A stretch of DNA of 64,000 nt from Bacteroidia bacterium. Its GTDB lineage: Bacteria > Bacteroidota > Bacteroidia > AKYH767-A > JBBKVM01. The stretch is taken from assembly GCA_037968415.1 (NCBI GenBank), contig JBBKVM010000002.1, positions 6,030 through 70,029 on the forward strand. Direction: 5' to 3'. A program made the translations under genes and the position numbers. Shown here piece by piece: positions 19,276 through 38,328 of this stretch (positions within the stretch are counted from its first letter, which is position 1; each line of letters opens with the position of its first letter). A model generated the notes under the pieces. That model had not been told where the DNA came from and did no database searches. It saw only the letters and a program-made list of their open reading frames with translations.

Positions 19276-21741
19276 TCACTTCGCCACTGCCATGTGGGCC
19301 TCCCACAGCAGGGCTTGCTTGCTGTGGCCGGTAAATCGCAGTGCCCCCGCGCGTATGAGTATGATGAGCTGGTCGCGCGTGATGCCGGTGCGCGTTACAA
19401 AATCATCGAGCGACAGGTAGGGCCCTCCGCGCTCGCGCTCGTGCGGTATGGCCGCGGCCGCCCCGCTCTCCAGGTCTTTGATGTGGATGAAGCCCAGCCA
19501 GATGGTGGTGCCGCTGATGGTGGTGAGGTGCTCGCTATGGTTTACACACGGGTTCTCTATGTGCGCGCCCGCCAGCCGCGCCTCGTTTACATACACCCAT
19601 GTGGAATAAAAGCCGCCAAAGTTGTTGATCACCGCCACCATAAACTCCAGCGGATAGTGCGCCTTGAGGTACAGACTCTGATAGCTCTCCACGGCAAAAC
19701 TGGCCGAGTGCGCCTTGGAGAATGAGTACCCCGAAAAACTTTCTATCTGCCGCCACACCTCCTGCGCCAGCGTGTCGGAGTAGCCGCGGTCGCGGCAGTT
19801 GTCGAAAAACTTTTTGACGATGCGGTCGAGCTCGGCCCGCCCGCGAAACTTGCCGCTCATGGCCCTGCGCAGCACATCGGCCTCGCTCAGGTCGAGCCCC
19901 GCAAAATGGTGCGCCACCTTGATCACATCTTCCTGGTACACCATCACCCCGTAGGTTTCTTTGAGCAGCGCTTCCATCACCGGATGCAGGTATTCAAAAT
20001 CGTTGGGGTGATGAAAGCGGTGTATGTAGGCGCGCATCATACCGCTTTTGGCCACGCCCGGGCGGATAATGGAGCTGGCAGCCACCAGCGAAATATAGTT
20101 GTCGCAGCGCAGCTTCTTGAGCAGCCCGCGCATGGCAGGGCTCTCCACATAAAAACAACCGATGGTGTCGCCTTTGCGCAGTTGCTCGGCCACCTGCGGA
20201 TCTTGTTTGAAGCGGGGCACATCGTGTATGTCGATGCGGGTGCCGCGGTTGCGCTGTATGATGTTTACACTGTCTTGTATGTGTCCGATGCCGCGCTGGC
20301 TCAGTATGTCGAGTTTCTCGAAGCCTATCTCTTCGGCCACATACATATCAAACTGTGTGGTGGCAAAGCCTTTGGGCGGCATGTCGAGGGCGGTGTAGCT
20401 GAAGATGGGCTCTTCGCTCACCAGTATGCCGCCCGCGTGGATGCTGCGCAGGTTGGGATAGTCGGCTATGCGCTTGCCGAGCGAAAAAATATTGCGCGCT
20501 ATGTCGTCACATCTCTCTTCGGGAGGCGGGTTCTCCACCAGCGCGTCTATCTCTGTTTTGGGCAGGCCGTACACCTTGCCCAGCTCGCGGATGATGCTCT
20601 TGCCTTTGAAGGTGCTGTAGGTAGCCATAAGGGCGGTGTGGCTGCTGCCGTAGCGTTTGAACACGTAGTCGATAACCTGGTCGCGGTCGCGCCACGAGTA
20701 GTCGATGTCGAAGTCGGGCGGGCTGGTGCGCGCGGGGTTGATAAAGCGTTCGAAGTAGAGGTCGAGTTCGATGGGATCTACATCGGTGATGCGCAGGCAG
20801 TAGGCCACAATGCTGTTGGCTCCGCTGCCACGACCCACGTGGTAGAAGCCGCGCGACATGCTGTAGCGTATCACGTCCCAGGTGATGAGGAAGTACGCGA
20901 GAAAGCCAAGCCGGGTGATCACTTCCAGCTCGTGGGCGATGCGTTTCTGCGCCTCTTTGTTGCGCAGGCCGTAGCGGTATTCCATGCCTTCGTGCGCGAG
21001 TTTTTCGAGCAGCAGGCGGTCGTCATAGGCGTTGCCGGTAAATGTCTTTCTGTTTTTCACCACGCGGTAGTCGAAGTCGAAAGAGCAGTCGGCCGCGAGT
21101 TGCGAGGCGTTGGCAATCAGTTCGGGGTATGCCGCGCAGCGGGCGGCCAGCGCGGCCGGTGTGTGCACAACCTCGCCCGCATGGCATGTGGCCGTAGGCG
21201 GCAGCTTGCTCAGCACCACATTGTGATCGATGGCGCGCAGCAGGCGGTGCACCTGCATGTCGGTCGGCTGGGCGAGCGTAACGGGCTGCATGAGCACCAT
21301 GCGCTGTCGCTGGCGGGCGGTGGTGGTGGCCAGCCGCGAGAGTGCCGCCAGCGGCACGCCTATGTATTCGTTGTCGCGCAGCGGATGGGTGGTGCCCAGC
21401 GGATACACCACGTGCACATGGTCGAAAACAGGCGCGCGCGCGGGCAACGCCTGTGCGGCTATATGATAGTGCGACACAAAAGCGTTGATCTCGGCAAAGC
21501 CGCGGTTGTTGCGCGCCAGGCACGTGTACAGCAATGTGTCGCCATGCCTTATCTCCATGCCCGCCACGGGGGTGATGCCCGCGGTGCGGCAGGCTTTTAC
21601 AAAATCGAACGTGCCCGACACATTGTTGATGTCGGTGAGGGCAAGCACCTGCGCGCCCGCGGCAGAGGCCTGCTGCACGAGCGCCTCTACAGGCAGGGTG
21701 CCGTAGCGCAGGCTGTAATAGGAATGGCAGTTGAGGTACAT
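19276..21741 (-). pseudogene. dnaE2: N-terminal 821-aa fragment of DnaE2/ImuC-like error-prone DNA polymerase (PHP domain through HhH); truncated by insertion
   Basis: MYLNCHSYYSLRYGTLPVEALV (PHP start), then the pol III alpha palm/fingers core, ending in the HhH-like segment ...GGPYLSLDDFVTRTGITRDQLIILIRAGALRFTGHSKQALLWEAHMAVAK and a stop. Composition is visibly GC-rich and changes abruptly to AT-rich at 19275. The continuation is at 12265-12738. Confidence 0.65.
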
Positions 21742-25480: not shown

Positions 25481-26425
25481 TTATTTGCGGGCAAAGGCGT
25501 TGATGTGCAGCGCAAAATCTTTGGCCACCAGCGCGGATCCTGTGAGAGCGGGACTGCTGTAGCATACATCAATGCCCATAGAAACAGAGGGCGAATTCAC
25601 ACTGTCGCACGCACCAATTTTTGAAAGAAAACTGTGTGCCTCAATCTTAAAATCATCGGCATCGAGTTTGGTTTCTGTGGGCTGTGAGTACGCCACGCTC
25701 AGCGCCAGACTGCGAATCAGTTTGTCGTAGATGTCGGCAAATGCCTCTGTGTCGGCAACCAAATCAATACTGGATGCTTTGCCGTTGATGATTGACAGCA
25801 GCCCCTTTTGCCCATAGGTCATTTTGAAGAACGTAGCATACTCTTCGAGGGTGTGGCGTTGGCTGTGAAACACATCTTTCATCGACTCGGTGCGCGAACG
25901 CTCACCGGGAGCCATGCTGCAATTCATCTCCTCAATAGAACTCCACACCTTCATTTGATCGGCTTCAAAATCGTTGCGTTCCATACGCATCGAACGGTCT
26001 ACCAAATCAGCACTCTTATCCGCGCGCAGGCGGTGCTCGGCAATATTGCCTGAGTCATCAAACTTGTCGGAATTATAATTCCAACGACCACGCTCGGTGC
26101 AACTCACAGGCACTTCGGTTACCTGCATTGGCTCCAGCAAAACGGTCACATTTACAATTCTGTTTTGTTTGGCACCCGACAACTCTTCACCATCCACTAT
26201 CAATAGTGGCAACTCACACTTATTCTTCACCAAAAGCTTCCCCACCACCCCCGACTCACTTACTTCCGTGATCTCCGCCAACCCCTTCTGCAATGCCCTT
26301 CGCAAGGTTATAAACCCAAATGGCGCCTTCTCCACTGTCATCAGCGGCACTATGGTTAATCCCCCCATAGTCTTTACATCTCCCATACTCAATGTGTTAA
26401 TCAAACTCGTTACTGCGTTGTTCAT
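25481..26425 (-). CDS. hypothetical cytoplasmic protein (no family recognised)
   Basis: 314 aa with no signal peptide. It is divergent from the DUF4139 gene across a roughly 420-nt intergenic region. Confidence 0.5.
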   Translation of the reverse strand: MNNAVTSLINTLSMGDVKTMGGLTIVPLMTVEKAPFGFITLRRALQKGLAEITEVSESGVVGKLLVKNKCELPLLIVDGEELSGAKQNRIVNVTVLLEPMQVTEVPVSCTERGRWNYNSDKFDDSGNIAEHRLRADKSADLVDRSMRMERNDFEADQMKVWSSIEEMNCSMAPGERSRTESMKDVFHSQRHTLEEYATFFKMTYGQKGLLSIINGKASSIDLVADTEAFADIYDKLIRSLALSVAYSQPTETKLDADDFKIEAHSFLSKIGACDSVNSPSVSMGIDVCYSSPALTGSALVAKDFALHINAFARK

Positions 26426-26842: not shown

Positions 26843-28495
26843 ATGAACTTACCAACAAACACTTTTTCGAAATGGGTGAACCAGATTATGCTTCTCCCCG
26901 CCCTCCTACTCATCACTTTCTCTGCAGCGCATGGCGATGACGAAACCAAACTTGGCAACACTACCGTCAAAGACATTGTAATCTACCGATCGCAAGCCAT
27001 GGTTACCCGTACCGTTGAATTCAATCACAAAGCCGGAGAAACTATCTACATCATTGAAGGCTTGTCGTCCAAACTGATAGCCAACAGTATAGAAGTACGG
27101 GGCAAAGGCGATTACGTAATTCTGTCGGTGAGTACTCAACTCAATTATCTTGAGCCCACACCCAAATCGCGCCAGCAAATACAACTGGAAGATTCGCTAG
27201 AGATGTTTAAAAAAGACCAGGATCAACTGGCCAACCGCAAGGCAGCCTATAATGATGAGGTGGCACTACTGCAAGCCAACAAAAACATTGGCGGGGCCAA
27301 TGTAGGGATTAAAACAGAAGAGCTAATCAAAATGGCCGACTTGTTCAGAACACGGCTCTTTGATCTGAAGGAAAAAATTACCGACATCAATAACAAAGAA
27401 AAAAAATTGAATGAGCGTGTAAAGCAAATCAACAACCAATTGAAAGAAATAAAGAAAGTGGATCAACCTACAAGCCGCATTTTTGTGACCACCATAGCCA
27501 AAGGCGCGGGGCGCGGGCAGTTTGAGATAAACTATCTGGTAAACAATGCCGGATGGGAACCACTCTACAATTTGCGTTCGGCCGGCACCACCAGCAAAAT
27601 CACACTGGAAATGCGTGCGCAGGTGTATCAGCAAACGGGCGAAAAGTGGGACAAGATCAATCTAAAATTATCGACTGGTCAGCCCAGCCTTGGCGCAATC
27701 AAGCCGGTGTTGAATCCGTGGTACATTTCTTTCAGCAGACCTATGCCGCGTGTGCACACGCTCAAGTCGATGGAGATAACGACCTCGGGAAAGAAACGCG
27801 AAAATGATGAAATGATGCAGGATGCATCAGCATACCAATTATCTACTGCAGAAAGTTCAGGTTCATACACCGTGGCCACCGACCAAACTTTGCAAACCGA
27901 ATTTGAAGTGAAACTACCCTACTCCATTCCTTCAGACGGAAATAAATACACCATCGATTTGCAAACCAATGACCTCCCTGCCTCTTACACCTACAGCGCA
28001 GTACCCAAACTGGATAAAGATGCATTCTTAACTGCGGCCATCACCGGGTGGGAAGACATGAATCTGGTGGCAGGCAAAATGAGCATATTCTTTGAAGGCT
28101 CTTTTGTGGGTGAGTCATTTATTGATCCCGCTTCGGTACTTGATACTCTGAATGTTTCGTTGGGCCGCGACAAGCGCATTGTGATTAAGCGAACTTTACT
28201 TCGCGAAAAGAGCGGAAATCAGTTTTTGGGAGGCAACCGTGTGGTGGATCGCAAATATGAGATAGTGATTAAAAACACACGAAAGGAAAAAATAGAATTG
28301 GTGCTGGAAGATCAAATACCTGTTTCGCGCGTGAAAGAAATTGAAATAAAAGACACCGATCTGAACGGGGGCGAACTAAACGCTGATACAGGCATTGTAA
28401 CTTGGAAATTGAATATAAATCCTGGCGATACCGAGAAAAAAACATTGGGTTTTGCTGTCAAATACCCAAAAGACAAAATAATTATTGGCCTGTAA
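26843..28495 (+). CDS. DUF4139 (MuiA-like) family protein with coiled-coil centre
   Basis: Signal/anchor segment, an N-terminal beta-rich region, a long coiled-coil (LEDSLEMFKKDQDQLANRKAAYNDEVALLQANK...NNKEKKLNERVKQINNQLKEIKK) and a C-terminal domain. The architecture resembles TIGR02231/DUF4140+DUF4139 proteins; this assignment comes from memory of that family, not from a search. Confidence 0.45.
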   Translation: MNLPTNTFSKWVNQIMLLPALLLITFSAAHGDDETKLGNTTVKDIVIYRSQAMVTRTVEFNHKAGETIYIIEGLSSKLIANSIEVRGKGDYVILSVSTQLNYLEPTPKSRQQIQLEDSLEMFKKDQDQLANRKAAYNDEVALLQANKNIGGANVGIKTEELIKMADLFRTRLFDLKEKITDINNKEKKLNERVKQINNQLKEIKKVDQPTSRIFVTTIAKGAGRGQFEINYLVNNAGWEPLYNLRSAGTTSKITLEMRAQVYQQTGEKWDKINLKLSTGQPSLGAIKPVLNPWYISFSRPMPRVHTLKSMEITTSGKKRENDEMMQDASAYQLSTAESSGSYTVATDQTLQTEFEVKLPYSIPSDGNKYTIDLQTNDLPASYTYSAVPKLDKDAFLTAAITGWEDMNLVAGKMSIFFEGSFVGESFIDPASVLDTLNVSLGRDKRIVIKRTLLREKSGNQFLGGNRVVDRKYEIVIKNTRKEKIELVLEDQIPVSRVKEIEIKDTDLNGGELNADTGIVTWKLNINPGDTEKKTLGFAVKYPKDKIIIGL

Positions 28496-28611: not shown

Positions 28612-29226
28612 ATGAAGAAAAGAATCCTTGTAATGCCGGCATTGATAGCAATTTTGACGCTCAGCGCATTTGTTGCCGTAAGCACATTGCATACCGATGT
28701 ATATGTAGTGGACACCAAAGCCTCCACATTAAACTGGACAGGTAAAAAATTCACGGGCCAGCATTCAGGCACAATCAATATTAGCAGTGGAAAGTTGCTC
28801 GACAACCACGGAACCATGTCAGGCTCAATTGTCATTGATATGTCCAGCATTAACAACACTGATCAGGAAGGAGGCATGAAAGGTAAATTGGAAGGCCATC
28901 TTAAATCAGCCGACTTTTTTGATGTGGTTACATACCCTACTGCAACCTTTGTAATCAAATCGATTGTACCGGTAGCAGAAAAGAAAGACGCTCATACACA
29001 TACCATAAGCGGTGACCTCACTATTAAAGACAAGACCAACCCACTTTCTTTTGACGCGGTTTACAAAAACGGAGAGACCGGCATGATCTGGTCAGGAACC
29101 GCAACCATTGACCGTTCAAAATATGATGTGAAATACGGTTCAAAAACATTTTTTGCCGATATCGGAGACAAAGTCATTTATGACGACTTCGATGTACAGT
29201 TTGTAATAGTGGCAAATCAAAAGTAA
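28612..29226 (+). CDS. YceI-like periplasmic polyisoprenoid-binding protein
   Basis: Signal peptide plus the YceI pattern (YVVDTKASTLNWTGKKF...HSGTI......MSGSIVIDMSSINT......LKSADFFDVVTYPTATFV...GDLTIKDKTNPLSF). Confidence 0.75.
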   Translation: MKKRILVMPALIAILTLSAFVAVSTLHTDVYVVDTKASTLNWTGKKFTGQHSGTINISSGKLLDNHGTMSGSIVIDMSSINNTDQEGGMKGKLEGHLKSADFFDVVTYPTATFVIKSIVPVAEKKDAHTHTISGDLTIKDKTNPLSFDAVYKNGETGMIWSGTATIDRSKYDVKYGSKTFFADIGDKVIYDDFDVQFVIVANQK

Positions 29227-29248: not shown

Positions 29249-29298
29249 CCTGTCCCCGGGTTGTGAATTTCATTCACAATTCGGGGACAGGTGTTTTT
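29249..29298 (+). terminator. intrinsic terminator after the yceI-like gene
   Basis: CCTGTCCCCGggttgtgaatttcattcacaattCGGGGACAGG then tgttttt: a 10-bp GC stem with a nested inner inverted repeat in the loop, followed by a T-run. Confidence 0.6.
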
Positions 29299-29374: not shown

Positions 29375-30988
29375 ATGGAAATCCTTTCCAAAAAAGTCCT
29401 GTCTATCTTCATGGTGTTTGCCATGTTGCATCTGTCGATAAGCTGCACTTCAAAGAAAACATGGGTATATGAAGACTTAAGCAAGGAGCTGACTAAGCAA
29501 GAATTTGTTTCGGCCCAAAACCAGCTTAAGTACATTACTATAAAATCTGGAGGTATTACCGAAACGGTTCAGATTGATGAAATAAACACTATTGAGAATT
29601 ACTTTTTGTGTAAAATAATTCAACCCACTCAACCGAATTCAAAGGACAAGATTTCAAATCAAAAAACAAAAATCAAGGAGGTTCAGATATTTGCCACCAA
29701 CATTGCCCTCAATGACAGTATAATAAAAGTCCCTTTCGGATCCGTGTCAAGAGTCGCGATTACCGAATCTACCGGAAGCAGTGCAGGCAAAACTATTCTG
29801 GCCGTGGTTGGGATTGCAGCTGCCGTTTTTGTATTGGCTCTTGTCATCATTGCATTGACCAAATCTTCATGTCCTTACGTGTATGTGTATGAAGATGGTT
29901 CATACCAATTCAAAGGAGAAATATTTGGAGGCGCCATTTTTTTGCCTCTTGAACGAGAAGATTATTTGACTTTGCTCGAAAACGTGGATTTACATCAAAA
30001 TGGTGAAATCAAGATTCAGATTGCCAATGAACTGCTTGAAAAACAGTACACCAATCTGGCTGAGGTTATAGTAGTGGAGCATGAACCAAATGCAAAAACA
30101 CGGATTGCCTCAAATGGACAGATTCTCCTTGTGGGCGATCCTATTCCTCCCATCACAGCTACACTAAACGGAATCATTGATATTTCAAAACAGATAGCTT
30201 CTTCTGATTCTCTCGTATGTTACTTTGACCAGGCAAATCTCCAAAACAAGGCTCAATTAGATTTGAAATTTGTGAAGCCCCACAATGCTGCTCAAGCCAA
30301 TTTGCTGCTCACCGCTAAAAATAGCTTGTGGCTTGATTACACTTTTGGAAAGTTTACCAGTTTGTTTGGCTCCTACTACAATCAATGGATTGTAAAGCAG
30401 CGGCATGCAAACAAAGATTCATTGCAACAATGGACTAGACAACAACAATTACCCCTGAAAATTGAATTAAAAATTGACAACCGATGGACTGTTGTAGATG
30501 AAATTCCAACCATTGGTCCGCTGGCCAACAGGGATATGTGTGTACCGCTAAATTTATCAGGATTGTATTCGGACACATTAGAAGTACGCCTTTCATGCGG
30601 ATTTATGTTCTGGGAAGTGGACCAGGTAGCAATAGATTTTACTCCACAAACCGCACTGAGAACCTTCACGCTTAAGCCCACATCAGCCGTGAATGAGAAC
30701 AACAAAGACGTGTTGGCTAATCTGATGTGGGATGATAATTATTACTTAAGTCAACCCAAACCTGGGAATGTTGCCACTATTAAATATTTATGCAAGAATG
30801 GCAAATCAGACAAGAAATATGACGTGTATCTGCATGGCAAAGGTTATTATGAACATGTTAGAGAATATTCGGGAATGCCGGACATAGCATATTTAAAATC
30901 ATTCAAACAGCCTGGCAGTTTTACCAATTTTTCCAGACAACTCTATGATAGGTACCTGAACGAAATGGGTCCGATAGTGGCCAAATAA
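29375..30988 (+). CDS. hypothetical membrane-anchored protein (lipoprotein-type signal, one internal TM helix, ~370-aa C-terminal domain)
   Basis: MEILSKKVLSIFMVFAMLHLSISC lipobox-like start and an internal TM ILAVVGIAAAVFVLALVIIALT. No known motif. The stop lies 3 nt before the radical-SAM start, which suggests translational coupling. Confidence 0.55.
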   Translation: MEILSKKVLSIFMVFAMLHLSISCTSKKTWVYEDLSKELTKQEFVSAQNQLKYITIKSGGITETVQIDEINTIENYFLCKIIQPTQPNSKDKISNQKTKIKEVQIFATNIALNDSIIKVPFGSVSRVAITESTGSSAGKTILAVVGIAAAVFVLALVIIALTKSSCPYVYVYEDGSYQFKGEIFGGAIFLPLEREDYLTLLENVDLHQNGEIKIQIANELLEKQYTNLAEVIVVEHEPNAKTRIASNGQILLVGDPIPPITATLNGIIDISKQIASSDSLVCYFDQANLQNKAQLDLKFVKPHNAAQANLLLTAKNSLWLDYTFGKFTSLFGSYYNQWIVKQRHANKDSLQQWTRQQQLPLKIELKIDNRWTVVDEIPTIGPLANRDMCVPLNLSGLYSDTLEVRLSCGFMFWEVDQVAIDFTPQTALRTFTLKPTSAVNENNKDVLANLMWDDNYYLSQPKPGNVATIKYLCKNGKSDKKYDVYLHGKGYYEHVREYSGMPDIAYLKSFKQPGSFTNFSRQLYDRYLNEMGPIVAK

Positions 30989-30990
30989 AT

Positions 30991-32226
30991 ATGGATTCCA
31001 TTACGATTGTTGCAAGTCGAGTATCTAAAAACACCACGCCCTGGAGTCACATCACATTCTGGCTATTAAAAAGAAAAACAGCTGTGATGCGAAGTATTAG
31101 TTTGTTCAATGCACGGTTTGAGCTCAAAATATTTTTACTGAAACAGTTATTATCGTATTATCGAAATCCATTGACTGTATTGCGAAAGGCAAAATACTTT
31201 GAACAATACAGGAGAAGTGTTCATGGTGACATGCCCATAAATAAATTCAAGAAGGTGGGTGATAAAAAGCATTGGTTTTTGTACGCTCCCGGTTTTCCCT
31301 CCCAAAGTTTTGCTAAAATGATACACTTCGAGTTGAACCGGCTCGAAAAAAAAGACAATCACAAAAATGATTTAAGATTTGTTTTTCTGGCTATTACAAA
31401 TAAGTGTCCGCTCAATTGTGAGCATTGTTTTGAAGGGTTGAATCTGAATAAACCTGAAGTTTATAATTACAATGATTTAGAGCAGATTGTATCCGGGTTA
31501 ATAAAAAAGGGCGTGAGCCAGATTCACCTTAGTGGCGGAGAGCCTATGTTGCGTGTAAATGATATCGTATCACTTTCAAAAAAATACAGCAGTTCCATAG
31601 AATTTTGGGTAGTAACTTCAGGATTCAACGTTACCGAAATGAACGCTATGCGTTTGAAGGAGGCAGGGGTTACAGGACTGGTGGTAAGTATAGATCACTT
31701 CGATGCAGAAGTTCATGACAAATTCAGAAGGAGATCCGGGTCATTTGAAGAAGCAGTCAATGCGATTAAAAATGCGAAGCACAATAATCTGGTCACTGCA
31801 ATCTCTATTTGTGCCACCAAATCGTTTATCAGCGAACATAACCTGTTCGAATATGCACACATGGCATTTCGTATGGGAGTTGAATTTATTCAATTGCTCG
31901 AACCCAGACAGGCAGGCAACTATATTGACAAAGATGTGATGCTACATAAATCACACATCCAGACATTGGAACAATTTTACTTTACAATAGCTACTGACCC
32001 TACTTACCAAAATTATCCCATCATTGTGTATCCAGGCTATTATCAGCGAAAAGCGGGGTGTTTTATGGCCGGGCAGCGCTCACTTTATATTGACACCAAG
32101 GGTGATGTGATGTCATGTCCTTTTTGTCATAATAAATCGGGAAATGTGCTGACAGGAAATATTGATGATTGTATATCTAAAACCAAAGACATCGGTTGTC
32201 ATGATTATTCTGTTTCTTCTTTGTAA
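30991..32226 (+). CDS. radical SAM enzyme with C-terminal SPASM/twitch-like Cys cluster
   Basis: CxxxCxxC at residues ~139-146 (ITNKCPLNCEHCFEG), a SAM-binding GGEP motif (HLSGGEPML) and C-terminal Cys-rich motifs (GCFMAG, SCPFCH, DCISK, GCHD). A roughly 110-130 aa extension precedes the core if the first ATG is used; alternative starts at M81 or M110 would remove it. Confidence 0.75.
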   Translation: MDSITIVASRVSKNTTPWSHITFWLLKRKTAVMRSISLFNARFELKIFLLKQLLSYYRNPLTVLRKAKYFEQYRRSVHGDMPINKFKKVGDKKHWFLYAPGFPSQSFAKMIHFELNRLEKKDNHKNDLRFVFLAITNKCPLNCEHCFEGLNLNKPEVYNYNDLEQIVSGLIKKGVSQIHLSGGEPMLRVNDIVSLSKKYSSSIEFWVVTSGFNVTEMNAMRLKEAGVTGLVVSIDHFDAEVHDKFRRRSGSFEEAVNAIKNAKHNNLVTAISICATKSFISEHNLFEYAHMAFRMGVEFIQLLEPRQAGNYIDKDVMLHKSHIQTLEQFYFTIATDPTYQNYPIIVYPGYYQRKAGCFMAGQRSLYIDTKGDVMSCPFCHNKSGNVLTGNIDDCISKTKDIGCHDYSVSSL

Positions 32227-32235
32227 ATTCGGAAA

Positions 32236-32814
32236 ATGGTTAAGCGGCTTTTTCTCTTATTTGTTTTGAATGCGTTTTTATTTCCCCTCGTTGGAAATAG
32301 CCAAACCACAATTCGCAGACTTGAGAAGAGGCCATACATGGCATCAATCGAATCGAGAATGTTCGATACTCCAATTGTTGGCAGCTTGTATGAAGTAAAT
32401 GACAGCAGTATCGTATTATTAAGGAAAGTAACTTCTTCTCGTTCCACGCTACAGCATCTTCAGTTCAATTACGATGAAATCAATACCCTTAGACTAAAAA
32501 GAAAAAACAGCGTTGCGATGGGGATATTTTTGGGATTTTTAGGTGGTTTCCTTTTGGGCGAGTTTGTTGGATTATCAGCTTTTGAAGATGACGAATGCCA
32601 ATCGTCAGGTCCTATATTATTACAAGTCGTTGCTTGTTCTACTGCTCGCTCAAAAGAATACAAAGCATTATCGCTTGCAGTCGGCTTGGGTATTGGTGGT
32701 GGTTTAATAGGCGGTTTAATCGGAACCCAAAATGATATTTTCTTAATCCACCACGATTACAATCGATGGGCTGAGCTTTCGCCCAGGATAACGCGATACG
32801 CTATCATCCAGTAA
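32236..32814 (+). CDS. hypothetical secreted/membrane protein with Gly-zipper segments
   Basis: Signal peptide MVKRLFLLFVLNAFLFPLVGNSQ and two Gly-rich hydrophobic segments (GIFLGFLGGFLLGEFVGL; LAVGLGIGGGLIGGLIGTQ). It starts 9 nt after the radical-SAM stop. Confidence 0.5.
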   Translation: MVKRLFLLFVLNAFLFPLVGNSQTTIRRLEKRPYMASIESRMFDTPIVGSLYEVNDSSIVLLRKVTSSRSTLQHLQFNYDEINTLRLKRKNSVAMGIFLGFLGGFLLGEFVGLSAFEDDECQSSGPILLQVVACSTARSKEYKALSLAVGLGIGGGLIGGLIGTQNDIFLIHHDYNRWAELSPRITRYAIIQ

Positions 32815-32842: not shown

Positions 32843-33997
32843 TCACCGTATGGTCACCGCGCGCATTACGGCTTCTTCGCCAAAGCGTTTTTTGATGCGG
32901 TCCATGGCCTGGTAGAGGCCGGCCAGGCGCTGGGTGTCTTCAAAAAGATTGATCTGCATGGAGCCTTGCACAAGGTGCGAGAGCCTTACGCCCACCAGCC
33001 GTATGAGCATGCGCCTGCTGTACAACTTGTCGAATAGTTCGTGGGCATGGGCCATCAGCACGTGGTCGGCCGCGGTGTAGGGTATGCGCAGCTGGCGTGT
33101 TTCGGTGTCGAAGTTGGCGTAGCGTATTTTCACCGTGATGCAAGAGGTGAGCCTGTTGCGGCTGCGCAGTTTGAAGGCCAGCTCTTCGGCCATGCCGGTA
33201 AGCAGCGCGCGAATGCCGGTTACATCTATGGTGTCTTTGTCGAAGGTGGTCTCGGTGCTTATGGACTTGCGTTCGCTGTACGCCACCACGGGGCTGTTGT
33301 CTATGCCGTTGGCTTTTTTCCATATCACCGTGCCTGCCTTGCCCAGCACGCGGGCAAGCATCTCGGGCGGCGTGCGCTGTAGCGTGTGTATGGTGGCTAT
33401 GCCCATGCCGCGTAGCAGCCGGAAGGTGGCCTCGCCTATCATGGGTATGCGCGCGATGGAAAGGGGCGAGAGAAAAGTCTTTTCGGTGCCGTGATGTATC
33501 TGTATGCGGCCATCGGGCTTGGCTTCGTTGGTCCCTATTTTAGACACGGTCTTATTGGCCGACAGGCCAAAAGAAATGGGCAGCCCTGTCTCGCGCAGTA
33601 TGCCCGCCTTCAGCTCATCGGTGTACTGCAGGCATCCGTGAAAACGATCCATGCCGGTAAGGTCAATATAAAACTCATCGATAGATGCCTTCTCATACAA
33701 CGGTACACTTTCGGCTATCACCTCGGTAACCAGCCCCGAATAGCGCGAGTAAGCCTCCATGTCGCCACGTATCACCAGTGCATCGGGGCACAACTGGCGC
33801 GCCATGCGCATGGGCATGGCCGAGCGCACGCCATACACGCGCGCCTCGTAGCTGCACGAGGCCACCACGCCCCTGTCGCTGAGGCCACCAATAATAAGCG
33901 GCCGCCCGGCCAGCGCGCTATTACGCAGCCGCTCCACGCTCACAAAAAACGTGTCCAGATCCATGTGTACGATATGCCGCGGCTCACTGCTATGCAT
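32843..33997 (-). CDS. dinB: DNA polymerase IV (Y-family, catalytically competent DinB-like)
   Basis: HMDLDTFFVSVE and SIDEFYIDLT carry the D-D-E catalytic residues in the positions of E. coli DinB (VDMDCFF / SLDEAYLDVT). The size is 384 aa. The gene is GC-rich and divergently arranged from the LexA-like repressor. Confidence 0.8.
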   Translation of the reverse strand: MHSSEPRHIVHMDLDTFFVSVERLRNSALAGRPLIIGGLSDRGVVASCSYEARVYGVRSAMPMRMARQLCPDALVIRGDMEAYSRYSGLVTEVIAESVPLYEKASIDEFYIDLTGMDRFHGCLQYTDELKAGILRETGLPISFGLSANKTVSKIGTNEAKPDGRIQIHHGTEKTFLSPLSIARIPMIGEATFRLLRGMGIATIHTLQRTPPEMLARVLGKAGTVIWKKANGIDNSPVVAYSERKSISTETTFDKDTIDVTGIRALLTGMAEELAFKLRSRNRLTSCITVKIRYANFDTETRQLRIPYTAADHVLMAHAHELFDKLYSRRMLIRLVGVRLSHLVQGSMQINLFEDTQRLAGLYQAMDRIKKRFGEEAVMRAVTIR

Positions 33998-34035: not shown

Positions 34036-34118
34036 TTATAGTCAATTAAATTAGCAATTTGTTTGCAAATTTATTACCTTGCACTATAATTTTTTATTCA
34101 CAACAAGGAGGAACACAC

Positions 34119-34922
34119 ATGCTGTATTTTGGAAAAAACACCCAACTGCTGCGCAAGCGCAAAAACAGATCGCAGGAAGAAATGGCCACCGCGCTGGGCA
34201 TTACGCGCACCTCACTCAGCGGATACGAACTGGGCAACAACCAGCCACCCTACGAATTGCTCATCGCCATTTCCGATTATTTTAAGGTACCCGTTGACGT
34301 GCTGCTGCGCACCAGCCTGGCAAAAATGAGCGAGTTCAAACTGAGCGAACTGGAGCGCGGCTATGACCACGCACACATCACCGGATCGCAACTGCGTGTG
34401 CTGGCCACCACCACCGACAGCAACAACACCGAAAACACCGAACTGGTACCCGTAAAAGCCAAGGCCGGCTACACCCGCGGATATGCCGACCCCGATTACA
34501 TAAAAGTACTGCCCGCATTCAGCCTGCCCTTTCTCTCGCGCGAACGCAAGTACCGCACCTTCCCCATCAGTGGCGACTCTATGCCGCCCGTAGCGGACGG
34601 ATCGTGGGTGACAGGTGAATACCTACAGAACTGGAACCACATCAAAAACGGATTGCCATACATCATTGTCACCGCTGACGAAGGCATCGTATTTAAAATG
34701 GTGCACAACCATATTAAAGACAAAGGCTCACTGCTGCTGTGCTCTACCAACCCACTGTACAAGCCTTACGAAATAGCCGTAAGCGATGTGCTCGAAGTAT
34801 GGAAATTCGTACACTTCATAAGTTCCGAACTGCCCGAAAGCAACCAACCACGACAGGACCTCACCACCGCAGTCATCAACCTGCAGAAAGAAGTAGCCCA
34901 GCTAAAAATGAAACTGGACTAA
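34119..34922 (+). CDS. LexA-like SOS repressor (HTH_XRE DNA-binding domain + S24 self-cleaving peptidase domain)
   Basis: N-terminal XRE HTH (EEMATALGITRTSLSGYELGNNQP), an A-G cleavage-site candidate (VKAKAGYT), a catalytic Ser motif GDSM (ISGDSMPPV) and a downstream Lys (VFKMV). The ATG at 34119 is preceded by AAGGAGG; the ORF caller's upstream start at 34059 is unlikely. GC-rich. Confidence 0.75.
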   Translation: MLYFGKNTQLLRKRKNRSQEEMATALGITRTSLSGYELGNNQPPYELLIAISDYFKVPVDVLLRTSLAKMSEFKLSELERGYDHAHITGSQLRVLATTTDSNNTENTELVPVKAKAGYTRGYADPDYIKVLPAFSLPFLSRERKYRTFPISGDSMPPVADGSWVTGEYLQNWNHIKNGLPYIIVTADEGIVFKMVHNHIKDKGSLLLCSTNPLYKPYEIAVSDVLEVWKFVHFISSELPESNQPRQDLTTAVINLQKEVAQLKMKLD

Positions 34923-34983: not shown

Positions 34984-35610
34984 ATGGTAATAGTAGGTAT
35001 AGCAGGTGGCACAGGCTCGGGCAAAACAACAGTAGTTCAAAAAATAATGGAGCTGCTGAAAGCGGAAAATGTAGGCGTGCTCCATCAGGATGCATACTAC
35101 AAAGACCAGGGCCATCTGTCGCAGGCCGAAAGGCAACGCCTCAATTTCGATCACCCCGACTCTATTGAATTTGATCTGCTGATCGATCACATTAACAACC
35201 TCAAACATGGCGTGGCTGTGAGTGTGCCAGTGTACTCATACCATACCTGCACAAGAGGCGAAGAAACAATTCCATTTGCACCGCGCGAGGTGGTGATAGT
35301 GGAAGGCATACTCGTGCTGAATCATGCTCCACTAAGAGACCTGATGGATATAAAAGTGTTTGTAGATGCTCCTGCAGACGATCGTTTGGTGCGTGTGATA
35401 AAACGCGACATCATCGAGCGTGGGCGCGATGTAGCCAAAGTGCTGGAGCGTTATGAGCATACGCTGAAATTGATGCACGAACAGTTTATAGAACCAACCA
35501 AACGGCATGCAGACATTATCATACCACAAGGTGGCGAAAACAAAGTAGGTATCAAGGTGCTAAGCAACACCATCCAAATGAACCTAAAAAAATATGCTAC
35601 CGGATATTAA
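34984..35610 (+). CDS. udk: uridine kinase
   Basis: P-loop GIAGGTGSGKTT and full-length similarity to Udk (…HQDAYYKD…NFDHPDS.EFDLL…). Confidence 0.9.
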   Translation: MVIVGIAGGTGSGKTTVVQKIMELLKAENVGVLHQDAYYKDQGHLSQAERQRLNFDHPDSIEFDLLIDHINNLKHGVAVSVPVYSYHTCTRGEETIPFAPREVVIVEGILVLNHAPLRDLMDIKVFVDAPADDRLVRVIKRDIIERGRDVAKVLERYEHTLKLMHEQFIEPTKRHADIIIPQGGENKVGIKVLSNTIQMNLKKYATGY

Positions 35611-35650: not shown

Positions 35651-36013
35651 TTAGTGTATTTCGTTGCGGTCTATTTTGCAACACTCATCCAACCTGTCAA
35701 AAGCTCTTTTATCAGCCTTCATATCGTCCGCATCATAGCCGGCCATATTGATGGCTTTTTTTATTTTGAGTTCATTGGTTTTCTTCGGATTGTAAATAAT
35801 GGTGGCCAATTGCTTTTTTGCATCAACTTTGGTTGAGATGACTCCCTTTTCATAAGCCATCGCTTTCTCTATCGTCTCGGCACACATGTCACACACAGTC
35901 GACACTTTTATTACCACGGTATCTGGTGTCACCTTTGCTATGGCGGGTTGCACCATTAGCATGTATAGTGCCATCATCATGGTGATTCCAAATAAATTTC
36001 TCAAATTTTTCAT
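35651..36013 (-). CDS. periplasmic heavy-metal-associated (HMA) domain protein
   Basis: Signal peptide plus an HMA-like fold with a CxxC motif (VSTVCDMCAETIEKAM...ISTKVD....ATIIY...........IKKAINMAGYDA) and a C-terminal CC pair. Confidence 0.55.
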   Translation of the reverse strand: MKNLRNLFGITMMMALYMLMVQPAIAKVTPDTVVIKVSTVCDMCAETIEKAMAYEKGVISTKVDAKKQLATIIYNPKKTNELKIKKAINMAGYDADDMKADKRAFDRLDECCKIDRNEIH

Positions 36014-36029: not shown

Positions 36030-38249
36030 TTATTTGATTTTATATCGCAATCCTGCATAAATTTTTCGGCCCATTAGCGGGGCCCATATTACTGTTGCAT
36101 CAAATCCAGTGCCAAACGGATCATCCGCTCCAATTATTGGGTTGTTTTGTGTGTAGTCTGTTAAGTTTTCTACTCCGCTGTATACCGACCACTTTTTGAA
36201 ATTACGGGTTATTTGTGCGTTGGCCGTAACGTATGGATCAGAGTAAGATACATTCTCCCCCAACGGATCGGTACTGTAAACCGTAGCAGGCAGTTTCTTG
36301 CGGCCGGTGTATAAAACAGTTCCGTCAAATACCCATTTCTCAAACTTGGTTTTATACGAAATGTTAAACAACACTTTGTCGCGAGCGGTGAGCGGCTTGA
36401 CGCTCTGTACACCATTGTATGTACTCACCACTTTGTCCATGCGATATGCTGCTTTTACATCAAGTCTATCAATAGGTTCATACATCAATTGAGCTTGAAA
36501 GCTGTTGCTGTAGGATTTGCCATCAAGGTTATAAAACAAAATAGAAGCAGCATCGGTATAGGTGTCCACAATCAATTGATTGTCGAAAGTGGTGTAATAG
36601 TAATCAAGACTCAACACACCTTCTCGCCCACGAAACTTATAATCGTGTGTAAGGCTTGTGCCAAAATTCCATGCCACTTCCTGTTTGGGAGCTTCCAGCA
36701 CAATGATATTGCGCGAGCTGGCCAACACACCCACATTATCAGAAATGAGGTTGGCCACACGTGTGCCCTTGCCCGCGGTCAGGCGCAGGTGGGTAGTAGC
36801 TTTTAGGTCGTACTTTATGTGCAGTCGCGGAGTGGCAAACCATCCAAAGTCGTTGTGATAATCCGCGCGCAAGCCGCCCACAATTACATACCTGCCTGGA
36901 TTGGTAAAAGTATATTCACCAAAAACACCGGGCACAATTTCGGTTCGGTCATAAGACTGCTCAGCAAAATTCTCATCAATTTTATCAAACTGGTAAGAGG
37001 CTCCCAATCGGTATAAATGATTGGTGTTATCAATAATGTTTTGAAATATCAGATTGGAATAATAACTAGTCTGCGTGCCCGTGTAATTATTATTGCCGAA
37101 ATAACCATCCTGATCGTGCCATGCCACATTGTTTATCCAACCCAAACTTTTGTGCGGTTTATCAAAGTTTACAAGACCGGTTTTGGCAAATGCTTCATAT
37201 CGATTGGTTGCTAATTTGGTTTTGTACAATCCGTGTTGACCGTGGGCACCATCCAGTTCTGTGTATTGTCCGCCTACGCGTTCATCTCCTAACACCTTCA
37301 CACCTACTTGCGCTTCCAACCTTCCTCCACTACTGTACTTCCAGCGATTGAAGACATTATAGTTTTTCACTTTGGGCATATCCAAAAAGCTATCATGGTT
37401 GTGATCTATATCTGTCTGAAAATATTCTCCATGCGCCATCACCATCGTACTCCAGTTGTCGTTCAACTGACGTGCCGCCTCCACATTGAGTTCGGTATTA
37501 CCGGTACTTGCGCCATACACATTCAGGTTCAGCCTTTCACTTTCCCATGGCTTTTTATATTCAATGTTAATTTGCCCCGTGATGGCTTCATATCCATTCA
37601 AAACAGATCCTGTGCCTTTGGATATCTGAATGTTATCCATCCATGTTCCTGGAATATAATTCAAACCATATATACGTCCCAATCCACGCATGATTGGAAT
37701 GTTTTCTGCCTGCATAAGCGTGTAGCTTCCGGCCAATCCTAACATTTGAATTTCTTTGGAACCGGTCACCGCATCACTATACGATACATCCACAGATGCA
37801 TTTGTTTCAAAGCTCTCAGACAAATTGCAACATGCGGCTTTCAGCAACTCTTTAGAAGTTATCTTTTCAAGGTTGATCGGATCTACAGCACTAAAAAATG
37901 TAGATTGTTGTTTGCTGGCTATCTCCACAATCTTCAGCGATACCGATCGGTTCAACACTACTTTTATCACAGACTTGCCTGCCACATTGATGGTGTCTCC
38001 TGTGAAACCAACAAAACTTACCACCAATATGGGTTCAATTTCTTGAGGGATGTCAATTGCAAAATTTCCATTGATATCAGTAACCGTTCCGGTGGTTGTT
38101 CCGGCCCAATAAACATTTGCACCAGGCAGAGGTGTATTTGATTTCTCTTCACGCGCATACACCACGCCTTTTATTTTTGAAGCTTGAGCCATGACTTCAC
38201 CGTGTGCAAATGTCAATAACAAAAGCAATAATATTAATAAGTTTTTCAT
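36030..38249 (-). CDS. TonB-dependent outer-membrane receptor
   Basis: Start chosen at MKNLLILLLLLLTFAHG (38249). CarbopepD_reg-like N-domain (KIKGVVYAREEKSNTPLPGANVYW..TTTGTVTDINGNFAI), plug and barrel, with a C-terminal aromatic end (…RYKIK). Confidence 0.75.
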   Translation of the reverse strand: MKNLLILLLLLLTFAHGEVMAQASKIKGVVYAREEKSNTPLPGANVYWAGTTTGTVTDINGNFAIDIPQEIEPILVVSFVGFTGDTINVAGKSVIKVVLNRSVSLKIVEIASKQQSTFFSAVDPINLEKITSKELLKAACCNLSESFETNASVDVSYSDAVTGSKEIQMLGLAGSYTLMQAENIPIMRGLGRIYGLNYIPGTWMDNIQISKGTGSVLNGYEAITGQINIEYKKPWESERLNLNVYGASTGNTELNVEAARQLNDNWSTMVMAHGEYFQTDIDHNHDSFLDMPKVKNYNVFNRWKYSSGGRLEAQVGVKVLGDERVGGQYTELDGAHGQHGLYKTKLATNRYEAFAKTGLVNFDKPHKSLGWINNVAWHDQDGYFGNNNYTGTQTSYYSNLIFQNIIDNTNHLYRLGASYQFDKIDENFAEQSYDRTEIVPGVFGEYTFTNPGRYVIVGGLRADYHNDFGWFATPRLHIKYDLKATTHLRLTAGKGTRVANLISDNVGVLASSRNIIVLEAPKQEVAWNFGTSLTHDYKFRGREGVLSLDYYYTTFDNQLIVDTYTDAASILFYNLDGKSYSNSFQAQLMYEPIDRLDVKAAYRMDKVVSTYNGVQSVKPLTARDKVLFNISYKTKFEKWVFDGTVLYTGRKKLPATVYSTDPLGENVSYSDPYVTANAQITRNFKKWSVYSGVENLTDYTQNNPIIGADDPFGTGFDATVIWAPLMGRKIYAGLRYKIK

Positions 38250-38328
38250 CAGAATTCGTTTTTGATAAATAATAGACAACACAAATGTCCATTGTGAAGC
38301 AACAGACACAAATCAAAAAAGAATTAGA

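What the first reader, a model, noticed from the sequence alone, without database searches (positions are those of the whole stretch)
29375..32814. Translationally coupled cluster: membrane-anchored hypothetical protein, radical-SAM/SPASM enzyme and Gly-zipper small protein, a candidate protein- or peptide-modification system
The 537-aa protein has a lipoprotein-type signal, one internal TM helix and a ~370-aa domain. Its stop is 3 nt before the start of a 411-aa radical SAM enzyme with CxxxCxxC at ~139-146, a GGEP motif and a C-terminal cluster of at least six Cys (GCFMAG, SCPFCH, DCISK, GCHD) typical of SPASM/twitch auxiliary Fe-S domains. SPASM radical SAM enzymes normally modify peptides or proteins, as in anSME, sactisynthases and PqqE. 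The ~110-130 aa N-terminal extension could be an RRE-like substrate-recognition domain, which is the sactisynthase layout. Nine nt downstream lies a signal-peptide protein with two Gly-zipper segments and several Cys. No precursor of 60 aa or more is visible. The substrate may therefore be one of the flanking proteins or a short unannotated peptide. I could not place any of the three in a named family.
Basis: partly seen in the sequence, partly recalled or inferred. Interest (0 to 1): 0.6.

Follow-up and report, generated by a model that had tools for sequence, protein, structure and literature searches.

The report
Membrane lipoprotein paired with radical-SAM enzyme
Two of the three genes form an undescribed gene pair found in hundreds of Bacteroidota species: a membrane-anchored lipoprotein and a radical-SAM enzyme that are always adjacent and often sit next to lipid-tailoring enzymes, while the third small gene is only a local neighbour and the biochemical function is still unknown.

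Summary
All three ORFs exist at the stated coordinates.

**Conserved unit.** Only the first two genes are conserved together. The 537-aa protein has a lipobox Cys24, one TM helix, an invariant K-S-S-C-P motif just after it, and a roughly 370-aa double beta-sandwich domain inferred to be cytoplasmic. The 411-aa radical SAM enzyme lies next to it in 76 of 80 species genomes, and in all 72 rSAM-anchored metagenome loci with room to judge. The junction is usually -26 to +10 nt.

**The enzyme.** It has CxxxCxxC, GGEP and four invariant C-terminal Cys. That indicates one auxiliary cluster (twitch type), not full SPASM. Its closest structures are SkfB, BlsE and MoaA. Every NCBIfam equivalog is far below cut-off, so it is not a housekeeping family. 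The conserved N-terminal extension shows no RRE signal.

**The partner.** It has no Pfam, NCBIfam or PDB relative.

**The third gene.** The 192-aa Gly-zipper protein belongs to a diffuse small-envelope-protein family. It accompanies the pair in only 2 of about 160 other loci.

**No precursor peptide.** No conserved small peptide gene fits in the operon.

**Context.** About 40% of loci carry FA_hydroxylase, KASIII-like, SDR or sulfotransferase genes in varying arrangements. About 20% have an outer-membrane barrel-like gene upstream.

**Best reading (about 0.4).** A membrane-tethered two-subunit radical enzyme acting on a lipid-like substrate. The main rival (about 0.3) is that the rSAM modifies its partner's juxtamembrane Cys.

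The parts
29249..29291 (+). Terminator-like hairpin (20-bp stem, 10 G-C pairs, then a T-run) between YceI and the pair. It marks the upstream boundary of the transcription unit.
29375..30988 (+). Partner protein, 537 aa: a bitopic membrane lipoprotein of a family with no Pfam or NCBIfam model
29375..29446 (+). Signal peptide plus lipobox ending at invariant Cys24
   Evidence: G/S/A at -1 in 41 of 43 homologues
29447..29779 (+). Small beta-rich N-domain (aa 25-135). Periplasmic location is inferred. Poorly conserved (mean column conservation 0.41).
29780..29860 (+). Single transmembrane helix (aa 136-162)
29861..29875 (+). Invariant juxtamembrane motif K163-S-S165-C166-P167
   Evidence: also used as the scan pattern
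29876..30985 (+). C-terminal domain (aa 168-537): two beta-sandwich/jelly-roll modules plus helices, with six highly conserved blocks. Cytoplasmic location is inferred from the topology.
30991..32226 (+). Radical SAM enzyme, 411 aa, twitch type
30991..31365 (+). Family-specific N-terminal extension (aa 1-125): helices 35-57 and 60-78, beta hairpin 87-94, helix 105-119. P100 and G101 are invariant; G79 and K85 are nearly so. No RRE signal.
31405..31428 (+). C139-x3-C143-x2-C146 radical SAM cluster motif
31534..31545 (+). GGEP (SAM-binding GGE motif), aa 182-185
31810..31812 (+). Invariant Cys274 on a predicted core beta strand (268-274). A role as H-atom donor or extra ligand is only a suggestion.
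32059..32199 (+). Twitch-like auxiliary-cluster region: C357-x13-G371-x4-C376-x2-C379 ... C403 (four invariant Cys)
32236..32814 (+). 192-aa signal-peptide protein with two Gly-zipper segments. Probably co-transcribed in this window, but not part of the conserved module.

Best explanation
The conserved unit is a two-gene module. The first gene encodes an inner-membrane lipoprotein with a small periplasmic N-domain, one TM helix and a large double beta-sandwich domain on the cytoplasmic side. The second encodes a cytoplasmic radical SAM enzyme with one auxiliary Fe-S cluster (twitch type) and a family-specific N-terminal extension.

I propose that the two proteins form a stoichiometric, membrane-tethered complex. 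The partner's cytoplasmic domain holds the enzyme at the inner face of the membrane and binds or presents an amphiphilic substrate, either a lipid or a lipid-linked head group. The enzyme then carries out 5'-deoxyadenosyl-radical chemistry on that substrate.

In roughly 40% of genomes the same molecule would be built or tailored by adjacent KASIII-like, SDR, fatty-acid-hydroxylase-family and sulfotransferase enzymes. A frequently adjacent outer-membrane barrel-like protein hints that the product is destined for the cell envelope. The invariant Cys166 at the membrane interface would take part in binding or tethering the substrate.

Shown: gene reality, obligate pairing, tight junctions, motif conservation, fold class, and the accessory-gene associations.
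Inferred: the topology, complex formation, the nature of the substrate, and any role for Cys166.
For: Pairing:
- 76 of 80 partner-anchored species genomes have the rSAM immediately downstream.
- Of 80 rSAM-anchored metagenome loci, 69 have the partner directly upstream, 2 have a sulfotransferase gene inserted between, 1 has the order swapped, and 8 have no room to judge.
- The junction is -26 to +10 nt in 65 of 74 loci, as expected for stoichiometric subunits.

The partner looks like a functional domain, not just a modification site:
- 39 invariant residues, many of them polar or aromatic, in six about equally conserved blocks.
- A confident model of the C-terminal domain (pLDDT >90) with jelly-roll modules. 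The only structural resemblances are carbohydrate-binding and ligand-binding jelly rolls.

The enzyme:
- A one-cluster twitch layout.
- Its nearest solved relatives include small-molecule enzymes: BlsE (5e-12 by sequence), MoaA and viperins.

Context (159 pooled loci):
- FA_hydroxylase PF04116 in 44, KASIII-like in 25, SDR in 16, sulfotransferase in 4. At least one of these is present in 66 of 159.
- FA_hydroxylase occurs in four different arrangements and across at least four Bacteroidota orders (record titles).
- A Pfam-less OMP-like gene lies directly upstream in 29 loci, and OMP_b-brl_2 proteins in others.

Against a peptide substrate: no RRE, and no room for a peptide gene.
Against: - No biochemical or structural evidence shows that the two proteins bind each other.
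- No lipid-type accessory gene lies anywhere in this 64-kb window, and 70 of 159 loci show none, so the pair works without them nearby.
- SDR genes are common and partly genus-level synteny.
- The Foldseek matches for the partner are weak (TM <=0.17 on the query) and generic.
- The top structural match of the enzyme is a peptide maturase, SkfB.
- An invariant Cys next to a radical SAM enzyme is a classic substrate signature.
- The charges flanking the TM helix do not independently confirm the topology.
Confidence: 0.4

Rival explanations
1. Protein-maturase reading. The rSAM post-translationally modifies its partner, most likely at the invariant juxtamembrane K-S-S-C166-P motif. Possible chemistries are a thioether cross-link of the SkfB or QhpD type, or oxidation of the Cys. 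The modification would activate the partner's cytoplasmic domain.
For: - The pairing is 1:1 and obligate, with tight junctions.
- Cys166 and its motif are invariant, and sit in the linker between the TM helix and the first strand of the domain. That position should be accessible.
- The best structural match is the thioether-forming twitch maturase SkfB (TM 0.56, E 3e-13). StsB, PqqE and SuiB are also among the hits.
Against: - There is no RRE-like recognition domain.
- The Cys block is only one of six equally conserved blocks.
- It does not explain the recurring, rearranged linkage to KASIII-like, FA_hydroxylase, SDR and sulfotransferase genes.
- The motif is not the anSME C/S-x-P-x-R motif.
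Confidence: 0.3
2. The pair is a trans-envelope device of some other kind, for example signalling or regulated export. The periplasmic N-domain would contact the outer-membrane barrel protein, and the cytoplasmic domain would control or recruit the rSAM. This entry also stands for any function not captured above.
For: - The partner is bitopic, with domains on both sides of the membrane.
- An OMP-like gene lies 11-15 nt upstream in 25-29 loci.
Against: - The N-domain is poorly conserved (0.41).
- No regulator or transporter gene recurs.
- No homology was detected between the N-domain and the OMP-like family.
Confidence: 0.2
3. Classical RiPP system. The rSAM would mature a short, unannotated precursor peptide, or the 192-aa Gly-zipper protein.
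For: - The SPASM/twitch branch is rich in peptide maturases.
- The 192-aa gene lies 9 nt downstream in this window. A relative lies upstream of the pair in L152.
Against: - No conserved small ORF exists. The flanking genes abut the pair within 2-15 nt in many loci.
- The window gap contains only a hairpin-embedded 21-aa ORF and an out-of-frame 34-aa ORF.
- No RRE was found.
- The 192-aa family is absent from all but 2 of about 160 other loci, and its closest relatives are in unrelated contexts.
Confidence: 0.03
4. Housekeeping cofactor or RNA-modification enzyme, such as a MoaA, NirJ/AhbD, PqqE or methylthiotransferase clade member.
For: Weak core similarity to NirJ2 (87 bits), MoaA (80 bits) and AhbD (76 bits).
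Against: - All scores are far below the curated cut-offs (284-650 bits).
- The family is patchy: 393 of 185,579 species genomes, essentially only Bacteroidota.
- It is always tied to a lineage-specific membrane partner.
Confidence: 0.02

Closest known systems
SkfB (sporulation killing factor maturase; twitch-domain radical SAM, PDB 6efn)
   Same: Best structural match (Foldseek E 3e-13, TM 0.56-0.59) and a sequence hit at 1e-10. It has a radical SAM core plus a single-auxiliary-cluster twitch domain and an N-terminal extension. It acts on a Cys-containing substrate encoded next to it.
   Different: SkfB has an RRE-type N-domain and a 55-aa precursor peptide. Here the N-extension has a different order of secondary-structure elements and no RRE signal. 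No peptide gene exists, and the neighbour is a 537-aa membrane protein. The TIGR04403 score is 48 bits against a cut-off of 300.
BlsE (cytosylglucuronate decarboxylase, PDB 7vob) and MoaA (GTP 3',8-cyclase)
   Same: Best PDB sequence hit (BlsE, 5e-12) and the second and third structural hits. Both are small-molecule radical SAM enzymes with one auxiliary cluster.
   Different: Only the core region aligns (residues about 121-339). All family models are far below cut-off. These enzymes are soluble, have no membrane partner, and lack the 125-aa N-extension.
Known lipid-modifying radical SAM enzymes (Tes/GDGT-MAS, Mss, Gms, GrsA/B, Cds, HpnH/J, Jaw5), as reviewed in PMC13459092
   Same: Radical SAM chemistry on membrane lipids. 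The GDGT-MAS core is a weak sequence hit (1.8e-7). The genomic linkage to fatty-acid-type enzymes resembles the logic used to nominate ladderane and Jaw5 enzymes.
   Different: None of the listed enzymes is from Bacteroidota, and none is paired with a dedicated bitopic lipoprotein (no occurrence of 'lipoprotein' or 'Bacteroid' in the review). Tes and Gms carry full SPASM domains with two auxiliary clusters.
TIGR04133 'rSAM_w_lipo' radical SAM/SPASM family. From memory, it is described as partnered with a putative lipoprotein.
   Same: The idea of a radical SAM enzyme partnered with a lipoprotein in Bacteroidota.
   Different: The score is 58 bits against a cut-off of 425. The 537-aa partner matches no NCBIfam model. 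It is therefore a different family. The lipoprotein partnership of TIGR04133 is recalled, not tested here.
anSME / sulfatase maturation
   Same: A radical SAM enzyme that modifies a Cys or Ser in a large partner protein, with Pro close to the target residue.
   Different: The partner lacks the C/S-x-P-x-R motif (its motif is K-S-S-C-P-F/Y-V). The enzyme lacks the second auxiliary cluster.

Membership tests
Radical SAM superfamily (PF04055) | CxxxCxxC cluster motif, GGE SAM-binding motif, and a Pfam score above the gathering threshold | tested here: met
   C139/C143/C146 and GGEP 182-185 are invariant in 37 homologues. PF04055 scores 79 bits against a cut-off of 29.5.
SPASM subclass (two auxiliary clusters) | Seven-Cys motif CX9-15GX4C ... 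CX2CX5CX3C ... C, and a PF13186 match | tested here: not met
   Only four invariant C-terminal Cys (357, 376, 379, 403). There is no CX2CX5CX3C motif and no PF13186 hit at E<=0.01.
Twitch subclass (one auxiliary cluster) | CX9-15GX4C beta-hairpin followed by further Cys ligands for a single cluster, and structural similarity to BtrN, MoaA or SkfB | tested here: met
   C357-x13-G371-x4-C376-x2-C379 ... C403 are all invariant. The top structural hits are SkfB, BlsE and MoaA. Actual cluster binding cannot be tested here.
RRE-dependent RiPP maturase (sactisynthase layout) | N-terminal PqqD-like RRE (winged helix, three strands then three helices) | tested here: not met
   The predicted order is helix, helix, beta-hairpin, helix. 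None of 41 N-extensions hits PqqD or any RRE family at E<=1. The profile search against the PDB finds no RRE protein at E<=10.
RRE-dependent RiPP maturase (sactisynthase layout) | An adjacent, conserved precursor peptide gene | tested here: not met
   Neighbouring genes abut the pair within 2-15 nt in many loci. No credible small ORF lies in the window gaps. No recurrent small-ORF family appeared in the clustering, although that covered only ORFs of 70-80 aa or more.
Housekeeping equivalogs (MoaA, NirJ/NirJ2, AhbC/D, PqqE, MftC) | A score above the curated NCBIfam cut-off | tested here: not met
   The best scores are 87, 80, 76, 66 and 63 bits against cut-offs of 265-650.
TIGR04133 rSAM/lipoprotein system | A score above the TIGR04133 cut-off for the enzyme | tested here: not met
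   58 bits against 425. The partner matches no NCBIfam model.
anSME-type maturase with sulfatase-like substrate | C/S-x-P/A-x-R motif in the substrate, and two auxiliary clusters in the enzyme | tested here: not met
   The partner motif is K-S-S-C-P-[FY]-[VI], with no Arg at position +4. The enzyme has one auxiliary cluster.
Bacterial lipoprotein (partner protein) | N-terminal signal peptide with a lipobox ending in an invariant Cys | tested here: met
   Cys24 is invariant. The -1 residue is G/S/A in 41 of 43 homologues, and the n-region carries 2-8 K/R residues in 19 of the 20 members printed. Lipidation itself cannot be tested here.
Gly-zipper small envelope proteins (192-aa protein) | Repeated GxxxG segments, and a match to the Pfam Gly-zipper families | tested here: inconclusive
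   Two G-rich segments are conserved in 30 distant relatives, but there is no Pfam hit.
Anti-phage defence systems (PADLOC) | A match to a defence-system protein model beyond the generic core | tested here: not met
   Only pVip core similarity over rSAM residues 132-277. There are no hits for the partner or the 192-aa protein.

The most novel reading that the evidence does not exclude
The rSAM covalently joins a lipid chain to the invariant cytoplasmic juxtamembrane Cys166 of its partner. The chain would be supplied by the KASIII-like, SDR and FA_hydroxylase enzymes, either through a thioether to an unactivated carbon or by modification of a Cys-tethered acyl chain. This would be a radical, cytoplasmic-face protein lipidation or carrier mechanism with no known precedent. 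It would reconcile the invariant Cys with the lipid-enzyme neighbourhood.
Probability: 0.07. Interest if true: 0.85.

Novelty: new variant of a known kind. Interest (0 to 1): 0.5.

Why it matters
Radical SAM enzymes with dedicated partners are a known theme, but this pair is uncharted. The partner family has no Pfam, NCBIfam or PDB relative. The enzyme clade has no curated model. The full-text literature searches found no description.

The pair is nevertheless conserved in at least 393 Bacteroidota species across several orders. If it acts on a membrane lipid, it would be a Bacteroidota addition to the short list of lipid-modifying radical SAM enzymes, none of which is from that phylum, and it could explain an unassigned envelope lipid. 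If it instead modifies its partner's juxtamembrane Cys, it would be a new protein modification on a membrane protein.

Either way, the finding now reduces to a clear two-gene knockout or co-expression experiment.

Tried and rejected
- **Three-gene system: rejected.** The 192-aa gene gave only a self-hit in the word-indexed search. No tblastn hit appeared in 80 loci. A profile of its 212 distant relatives hits only L152 and, weakly, L085. Its closest relatives (L164, L165) have no pair nearby.
- **Remote homology among the 192-aa protein, the partner's N-domain and the upstream OMP-like family: none.** hhalign probability was below 8%.
- **RRE hypothesis: no support**.
- **Hidden peptide ORF: none**.
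- **Riboswitch or leader RNA upstream: none**.
- **Defence system: only generic viperin core similarity**.
- **Named families for the partner: none.** Tested with Pfam on 43 members at E<=1 and a PDB profile search at E<=10. Foldseek against the PDB gave only generic jelly-roll hits.
- **Window genes YceI, MuiA/DUF4139, ARPP-1, DinB and LexA-like as system members: rejected.** None recurs near the pair, and a terminator-like hairpin separates YceI.
- **Apparent exceptions to the pairing.** L146 and L021 have the gene order swapped. L152 and L157 have a sulfotransferase gene inserted. L024 diverges from its relative L018 exactly at the end of the partner gene. That is either a loss or an assembly join, and it remains unresolved.
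- **Literature:** four full-text searches found no description of this pair. A fifth search only retrieved papers on known membrane-spanning-lipid rSAMs.
- **TM-flank charge analysis:** it did not independently confirm the topology.

Full report
**1. Observation**

The junctions read TAA-AT-ATG (2-nt gap) and a 9-nt gap.

A terminator-like hairpin with a 20-bp stem and a T-run lies at 29249-29291. It separates the upstream YceI gene from the cluster. On the other side, the third gene ends 28 nt from a convergent DinB gene. Rfam finds no riboswitch or leader element.

Some details need correcting.
- The rSAM has five C-terminal Cys (357, 376, 379, 394, 403), not six or more.
- The 192-aa protein has two Cys, not several.

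**2. The enzyme**

Pfam gives only the radical SAM core (PF04055, residues 135-268) and Fer4_12. There is no SPASM model hit. All 67 NCBIfam hits lie far below their curated cut-offs. The best are NirJ2 at 87 bits against 500, and MoaA at 80 bits against 284. TIGR04133 'rSAM_w_lipo' scores 58 bits against 425. The enzyme is therefore not a housekeeping equivalog.

In an alignment of 37 homologues, the invariant Cys are C139, C143 and C146, then C274, and then C357, C376, C379 and C403. The pattern C357-x13-G371-x4-C376-x2-C379...C403 is the SPASM/twitch beta-hairpin plus enough ligands for one auxiliary cluster. That is a twitch layout rather than full SPASM.

The AlphaFold model is confident (pLDDT 88.2, pTM 0.89). 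Its best solved neighbours are SkfB (TM 0.56), BlsE and MoaA, followed by viperins and SuiB. By sequence the order is BlsE, SkfB, MoaA, PqqE and GDGT-MAS, aligned over the core only.

The N-terminal 125 residues are conserved within the family: P100 and G101 are invariant, and G79 and K85 are nearly so. They are predicted as helix 35-57, helix 60-78, beta-hairpin 87-94 and helix 105-119. That is not the strand-strand-strand-helix-helix-helix order of an RRE. Neither 41 extensions scanned against Pfam at E<=1, nor their profile searched against the PDB at E<=10, touch any PqqD or RRE protein.

**3. The partner**

The 537-aa protein has hundreds of homologues, all labelled hypothetical or lipoprotein. 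It has no Pfam hit even at E<=1 across 43 members, no NCBIfam hit, and no PDB sequence relative.

The alignment shows the following features.
- An invariant lipobox Cys24, with G/S/A at -1 in 41 of 43 members.
- A poorly conserved N-domain.
- One hydrophobic helix.
- Immediately after the helix, an invariant K163-S-S165-C166-P167 motif.
- Then a domain with 39 invariant positions, many of them polar or aromatic: E182, R194, D196, N218, E219, E222, Q224, D278, N316, W319, D321, W371, R386, W413, E414, D416, Q460, Y491, Y492 and R496.

The model (pLDDT 84.6, above 90 in the C-terminal domain) shows a small beta N-domain, a TM helix at 136-161, two beta-sandwich modules (about 168-316 and 361-494), a helical insert and C-terminal helices. 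Foldseek against the PDB returns only generic jelly-roll matches such as CBM35 of Xyn30D, Eph ligand-binding domains and the MAM domain of meprin. Their TM-scores on the query are low.

The topology is inferred. An exported, lipidated N-terminus followed by a single TM helix places the C-terminal domain in the cytoplasm, where a radical SAM enzyme must work. The charges flanking the helix do not add independent support.

The Cys motif block (conservation 0.80) is one of six about equally conserved blocks, not a solitary peak.

**4. Co-conservation**

A scan of 185,579 species genomes found 393 that encode a partner homologue. Nearly all are Bacteroidota: Hymenobacter, Rufibacter, Pontibacter, Adhaeribacter, Flavobacterium, Segetibacter, Saprospiraceae, Lentimicrobium and others.

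In the 80 loci fetched, the rSAM lies immediately downstream on the same strand in 76. Two more end at a contig edge. One has the order swapped (L021). One (L024) diverges from its relative L018 right after the partner gene.

The reciprocal test used 80 metagenome loci fetched through the rSAM.
- 69 have the partner directly upstream.
- 8 lack upstream sequence.
- 2 have a sulfotransferase gene inserted between the two.
- L146 has the partner downstream instead.

Every locus with room to judge therefore has both genes. The distance from the partner's stop to the first ATG of the rSAM ORF is -26 to +10 nt in 65 of 74 loci.

None of the other window genes (the 192-aa gene, YceI, MuiA/DUF4139, ARPP-1, DinB, LexA-like) recurs at tblastn E<=1e-5 in the 80 genome loci. 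The 192-aa, YceI and MuiA queries also found nothing in the 80 metagenome loci.

**5. The third gene**

The word-indexed search found only the protein itself. An exhaustive HMMER search of 1.84 billion representatives found 212 distant relatives of similar length. Their shared features are as follows.
- An 'AQ'-type signal peptide.
- A small beta domain.
- An RRKNSVG motif.
- Two Gly-zipper segments.
- A partly conserved DDPPC.

It is therefore a real gene from a diffuse family of envelope proteins.

A profile of that family hits only two ORFs in the roughly 160 other loci: one directly upstream of the partner in L152 (4.5e-13) and one weak hit in L085. The two closest relatives I could look up lie in unrelated contexts. 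At most it is a sporadic accessory, and it is not part of the conserved module.

**6. Recurrent accessory genes**

I clustered all flanking ORFs from 159 loci that carry the rSAM.

| Accessory gene | Loci |
|---|---|
| Fatty-acid-hydroxylase family membrane protein (PF04116) | 44 |
| KASIII/FabH-like condensing enzyme, about 295 aa | 25 |
| SDR (best resemblance mycolate reductase, well below cut-off) | 16 |
| Sulfotransferase (PF13469) | 4 |
| Pfam-less OMP-like protein, about 265 aa, 11-15 nt upstream | 29 |

- In the L146 copy of the KASIII-like enzyme, the GC(A/T)GG, HQxN and GN motifs are visible by eye.
- The OMP-like protein has a signal peptide and a C-terminal Phe. Other loci carry OMP_b-brl or OMP_b-brl_2 proteins in the same upstream position.
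- FA_hydroxylase occurs in four arrangements: directly downstream; downstream after the KASIII-like gene; upstream and divergent together with the KASIII-like gene; and split around the pair. These are spread over Flavobacteriales, Cytophagales, Chitinophagales and Saprospirales. That pattern argues for functional linkage rather than inherited synteny.
- At least one lipid-type accessory gene is present in 66 of 159 loci.
- None is present in this 64-kb window.

**7. Interpretation**

A classical RiPP system is very unlikely. There is no RRE, no conserved small ORF and no space for one. A housekeeping role is excluded by the model cut-offs and the patchy distribution. Two readings remain.

(a) A membrane-tethered two-subunit enzyme acting on a lipid or lipid-linked substrate. 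Four observations favour this:
- the accessory-gene pattern;
- the many conserved polar and aromatic blocks in a jelly-roll domain sitting at the membrane surface;
- the stoichiometry implied by overlapping genes;
- the small-molecule twitch enzymes among the nearest relatives.

(b) A dedicated maturase that modifies its partner at the invariant juxtamembrane Cys166. The obligate 1:1 pairing, the invariant Cys motif and SkfB as the top structural neighbour favour this.

I rate (a) at about 0.4 and (b) at about 0.3. The remainder goes to other envelope-spanning functions. A hybrid reading, radical lipidation of Cys166 or chemistry on a Cys-tethered chain, is not excluded and would be the most novel outcome (about 0.07).

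**8. Comparison with known systems, and novelty**

A 2026 review of lipid-modifying radical SAM enzymes lists Tes, Mss, Gms, GrsA/B, Gmm, Cds, HpnH/J/P/R, Jaw5 and the ladderane candidates. None is from Bacteroidota, and none is paired with a lipoprotein (PMC13459092). Four full-text searches found no description of this pair.

The enzyme passes the membership tests for the radical SAM superfamily and the twitch layout. It fails those for SPASM, for RRE-dependent maturases, for anSME, for TIGR04133 and for all housekeeping equivalogs.

I class it as a new variant of a known kind: a radical SAM enzyme with a dedicated partner, where both the partner family and the N-extension are uncharacterised. 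Interest is moderate at 0.5. It is a solid, widely conserved and experimentally tractable lead, but the function is unproven, and uncharacterised radical SAM families are common.

Noticed in passing
window 19276-21741 (-), with 32843-33997 (-) and 34059-34922 (+): A GC-rich segment (GC 0.586, against about 0.44 elsewhere) carries an 821-aa ORF. From its sequence it looks like a DnaE2/PHP-type error-prone polymerase (my reading; no family scan was run). A DinB polymerase (IMS domains) and a LexA-like HTH_3 plus Peptidase_S24 repressor flank the cluster on the other side. Together they suggest an SOS/mutagenesis neighbourhood, possibly acquired horizontally.
   Followed up: partly
window 25481-26425 (-) and 26843-28495 (+): A divergent pair: an ARPP-1 domain protein (PF20208) and a MuiA-family DUF4140/DUF4139 protein (TIGR02231, 289 bits). 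Neither recurs near the rSAM pair elsewhere.
   Followed up: partly
window 28612-29226 (+) and 29249-29291: A YceI-like (polyisoprenoid-binding family) gene occupies the position where many relatives have an outer-membrane barrel-like gene. A strong terminator-like hairpin separates it from the pair.
   Followed up: partly
P0242: A 1624-aa protein contains 29 repeats of a roughly 38-aa unit that matches residues 18-55 of the 192-aa protein.
   Followed up: no
L152 3663-4793, L157 3601-4722 (and two more loci): A sulfotransferase (PF13469) gene is inserted between the partner gene and the rSAM gene. In L152 a relative of the 192-aa protein also sits directly upstream of the partner.
   Followed up: partly
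L021, L146, L008: The gene order is swapped (rSAM then partner) in L021 and L146. One Phaeodactylibacter MAG carries two copies of the partner gene, on contigs L008 and L021.
   Followed up: partly
L027 4754-5524 (-) and five other loci: Prolipoprotein diacylglyceryl transferase (Lgt, PF01790) lies near the pair in six loci, five of which also carry the SDR. In L027 (Hymenobacter negativus) it is divergent, immediately upstream. This is probably lineage-level synteny, but it is curious given the partner's lipobox.
   Followed up: no
L164 263-1081 and 2927-3538: The closest relative of the 192-aa protein lies about 1.8 kb downstream of a distant FA_hydroxylase gene (28% identity to the accessory type) and next to an AraC-type regulator. 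There is no rSAM or partner gene on that 4.9-kb contig.
   Followed up: partly
window 22737-25400 (+), 36030-38309 (-), 35651-36013 (-), 34984-35610 (+), 41880-41953 (-): Read from sequence only, with no family scan: two large proteins resembling TonB-dependent receptors, a small signal-peptide protein with a CxxC motif resembling a heavy-metal-associated domain, and a uridine-kinase-like P-loop protein flank the region. The only Rfam hit in the window at gathering score is a tRNA.
   Followed up: no
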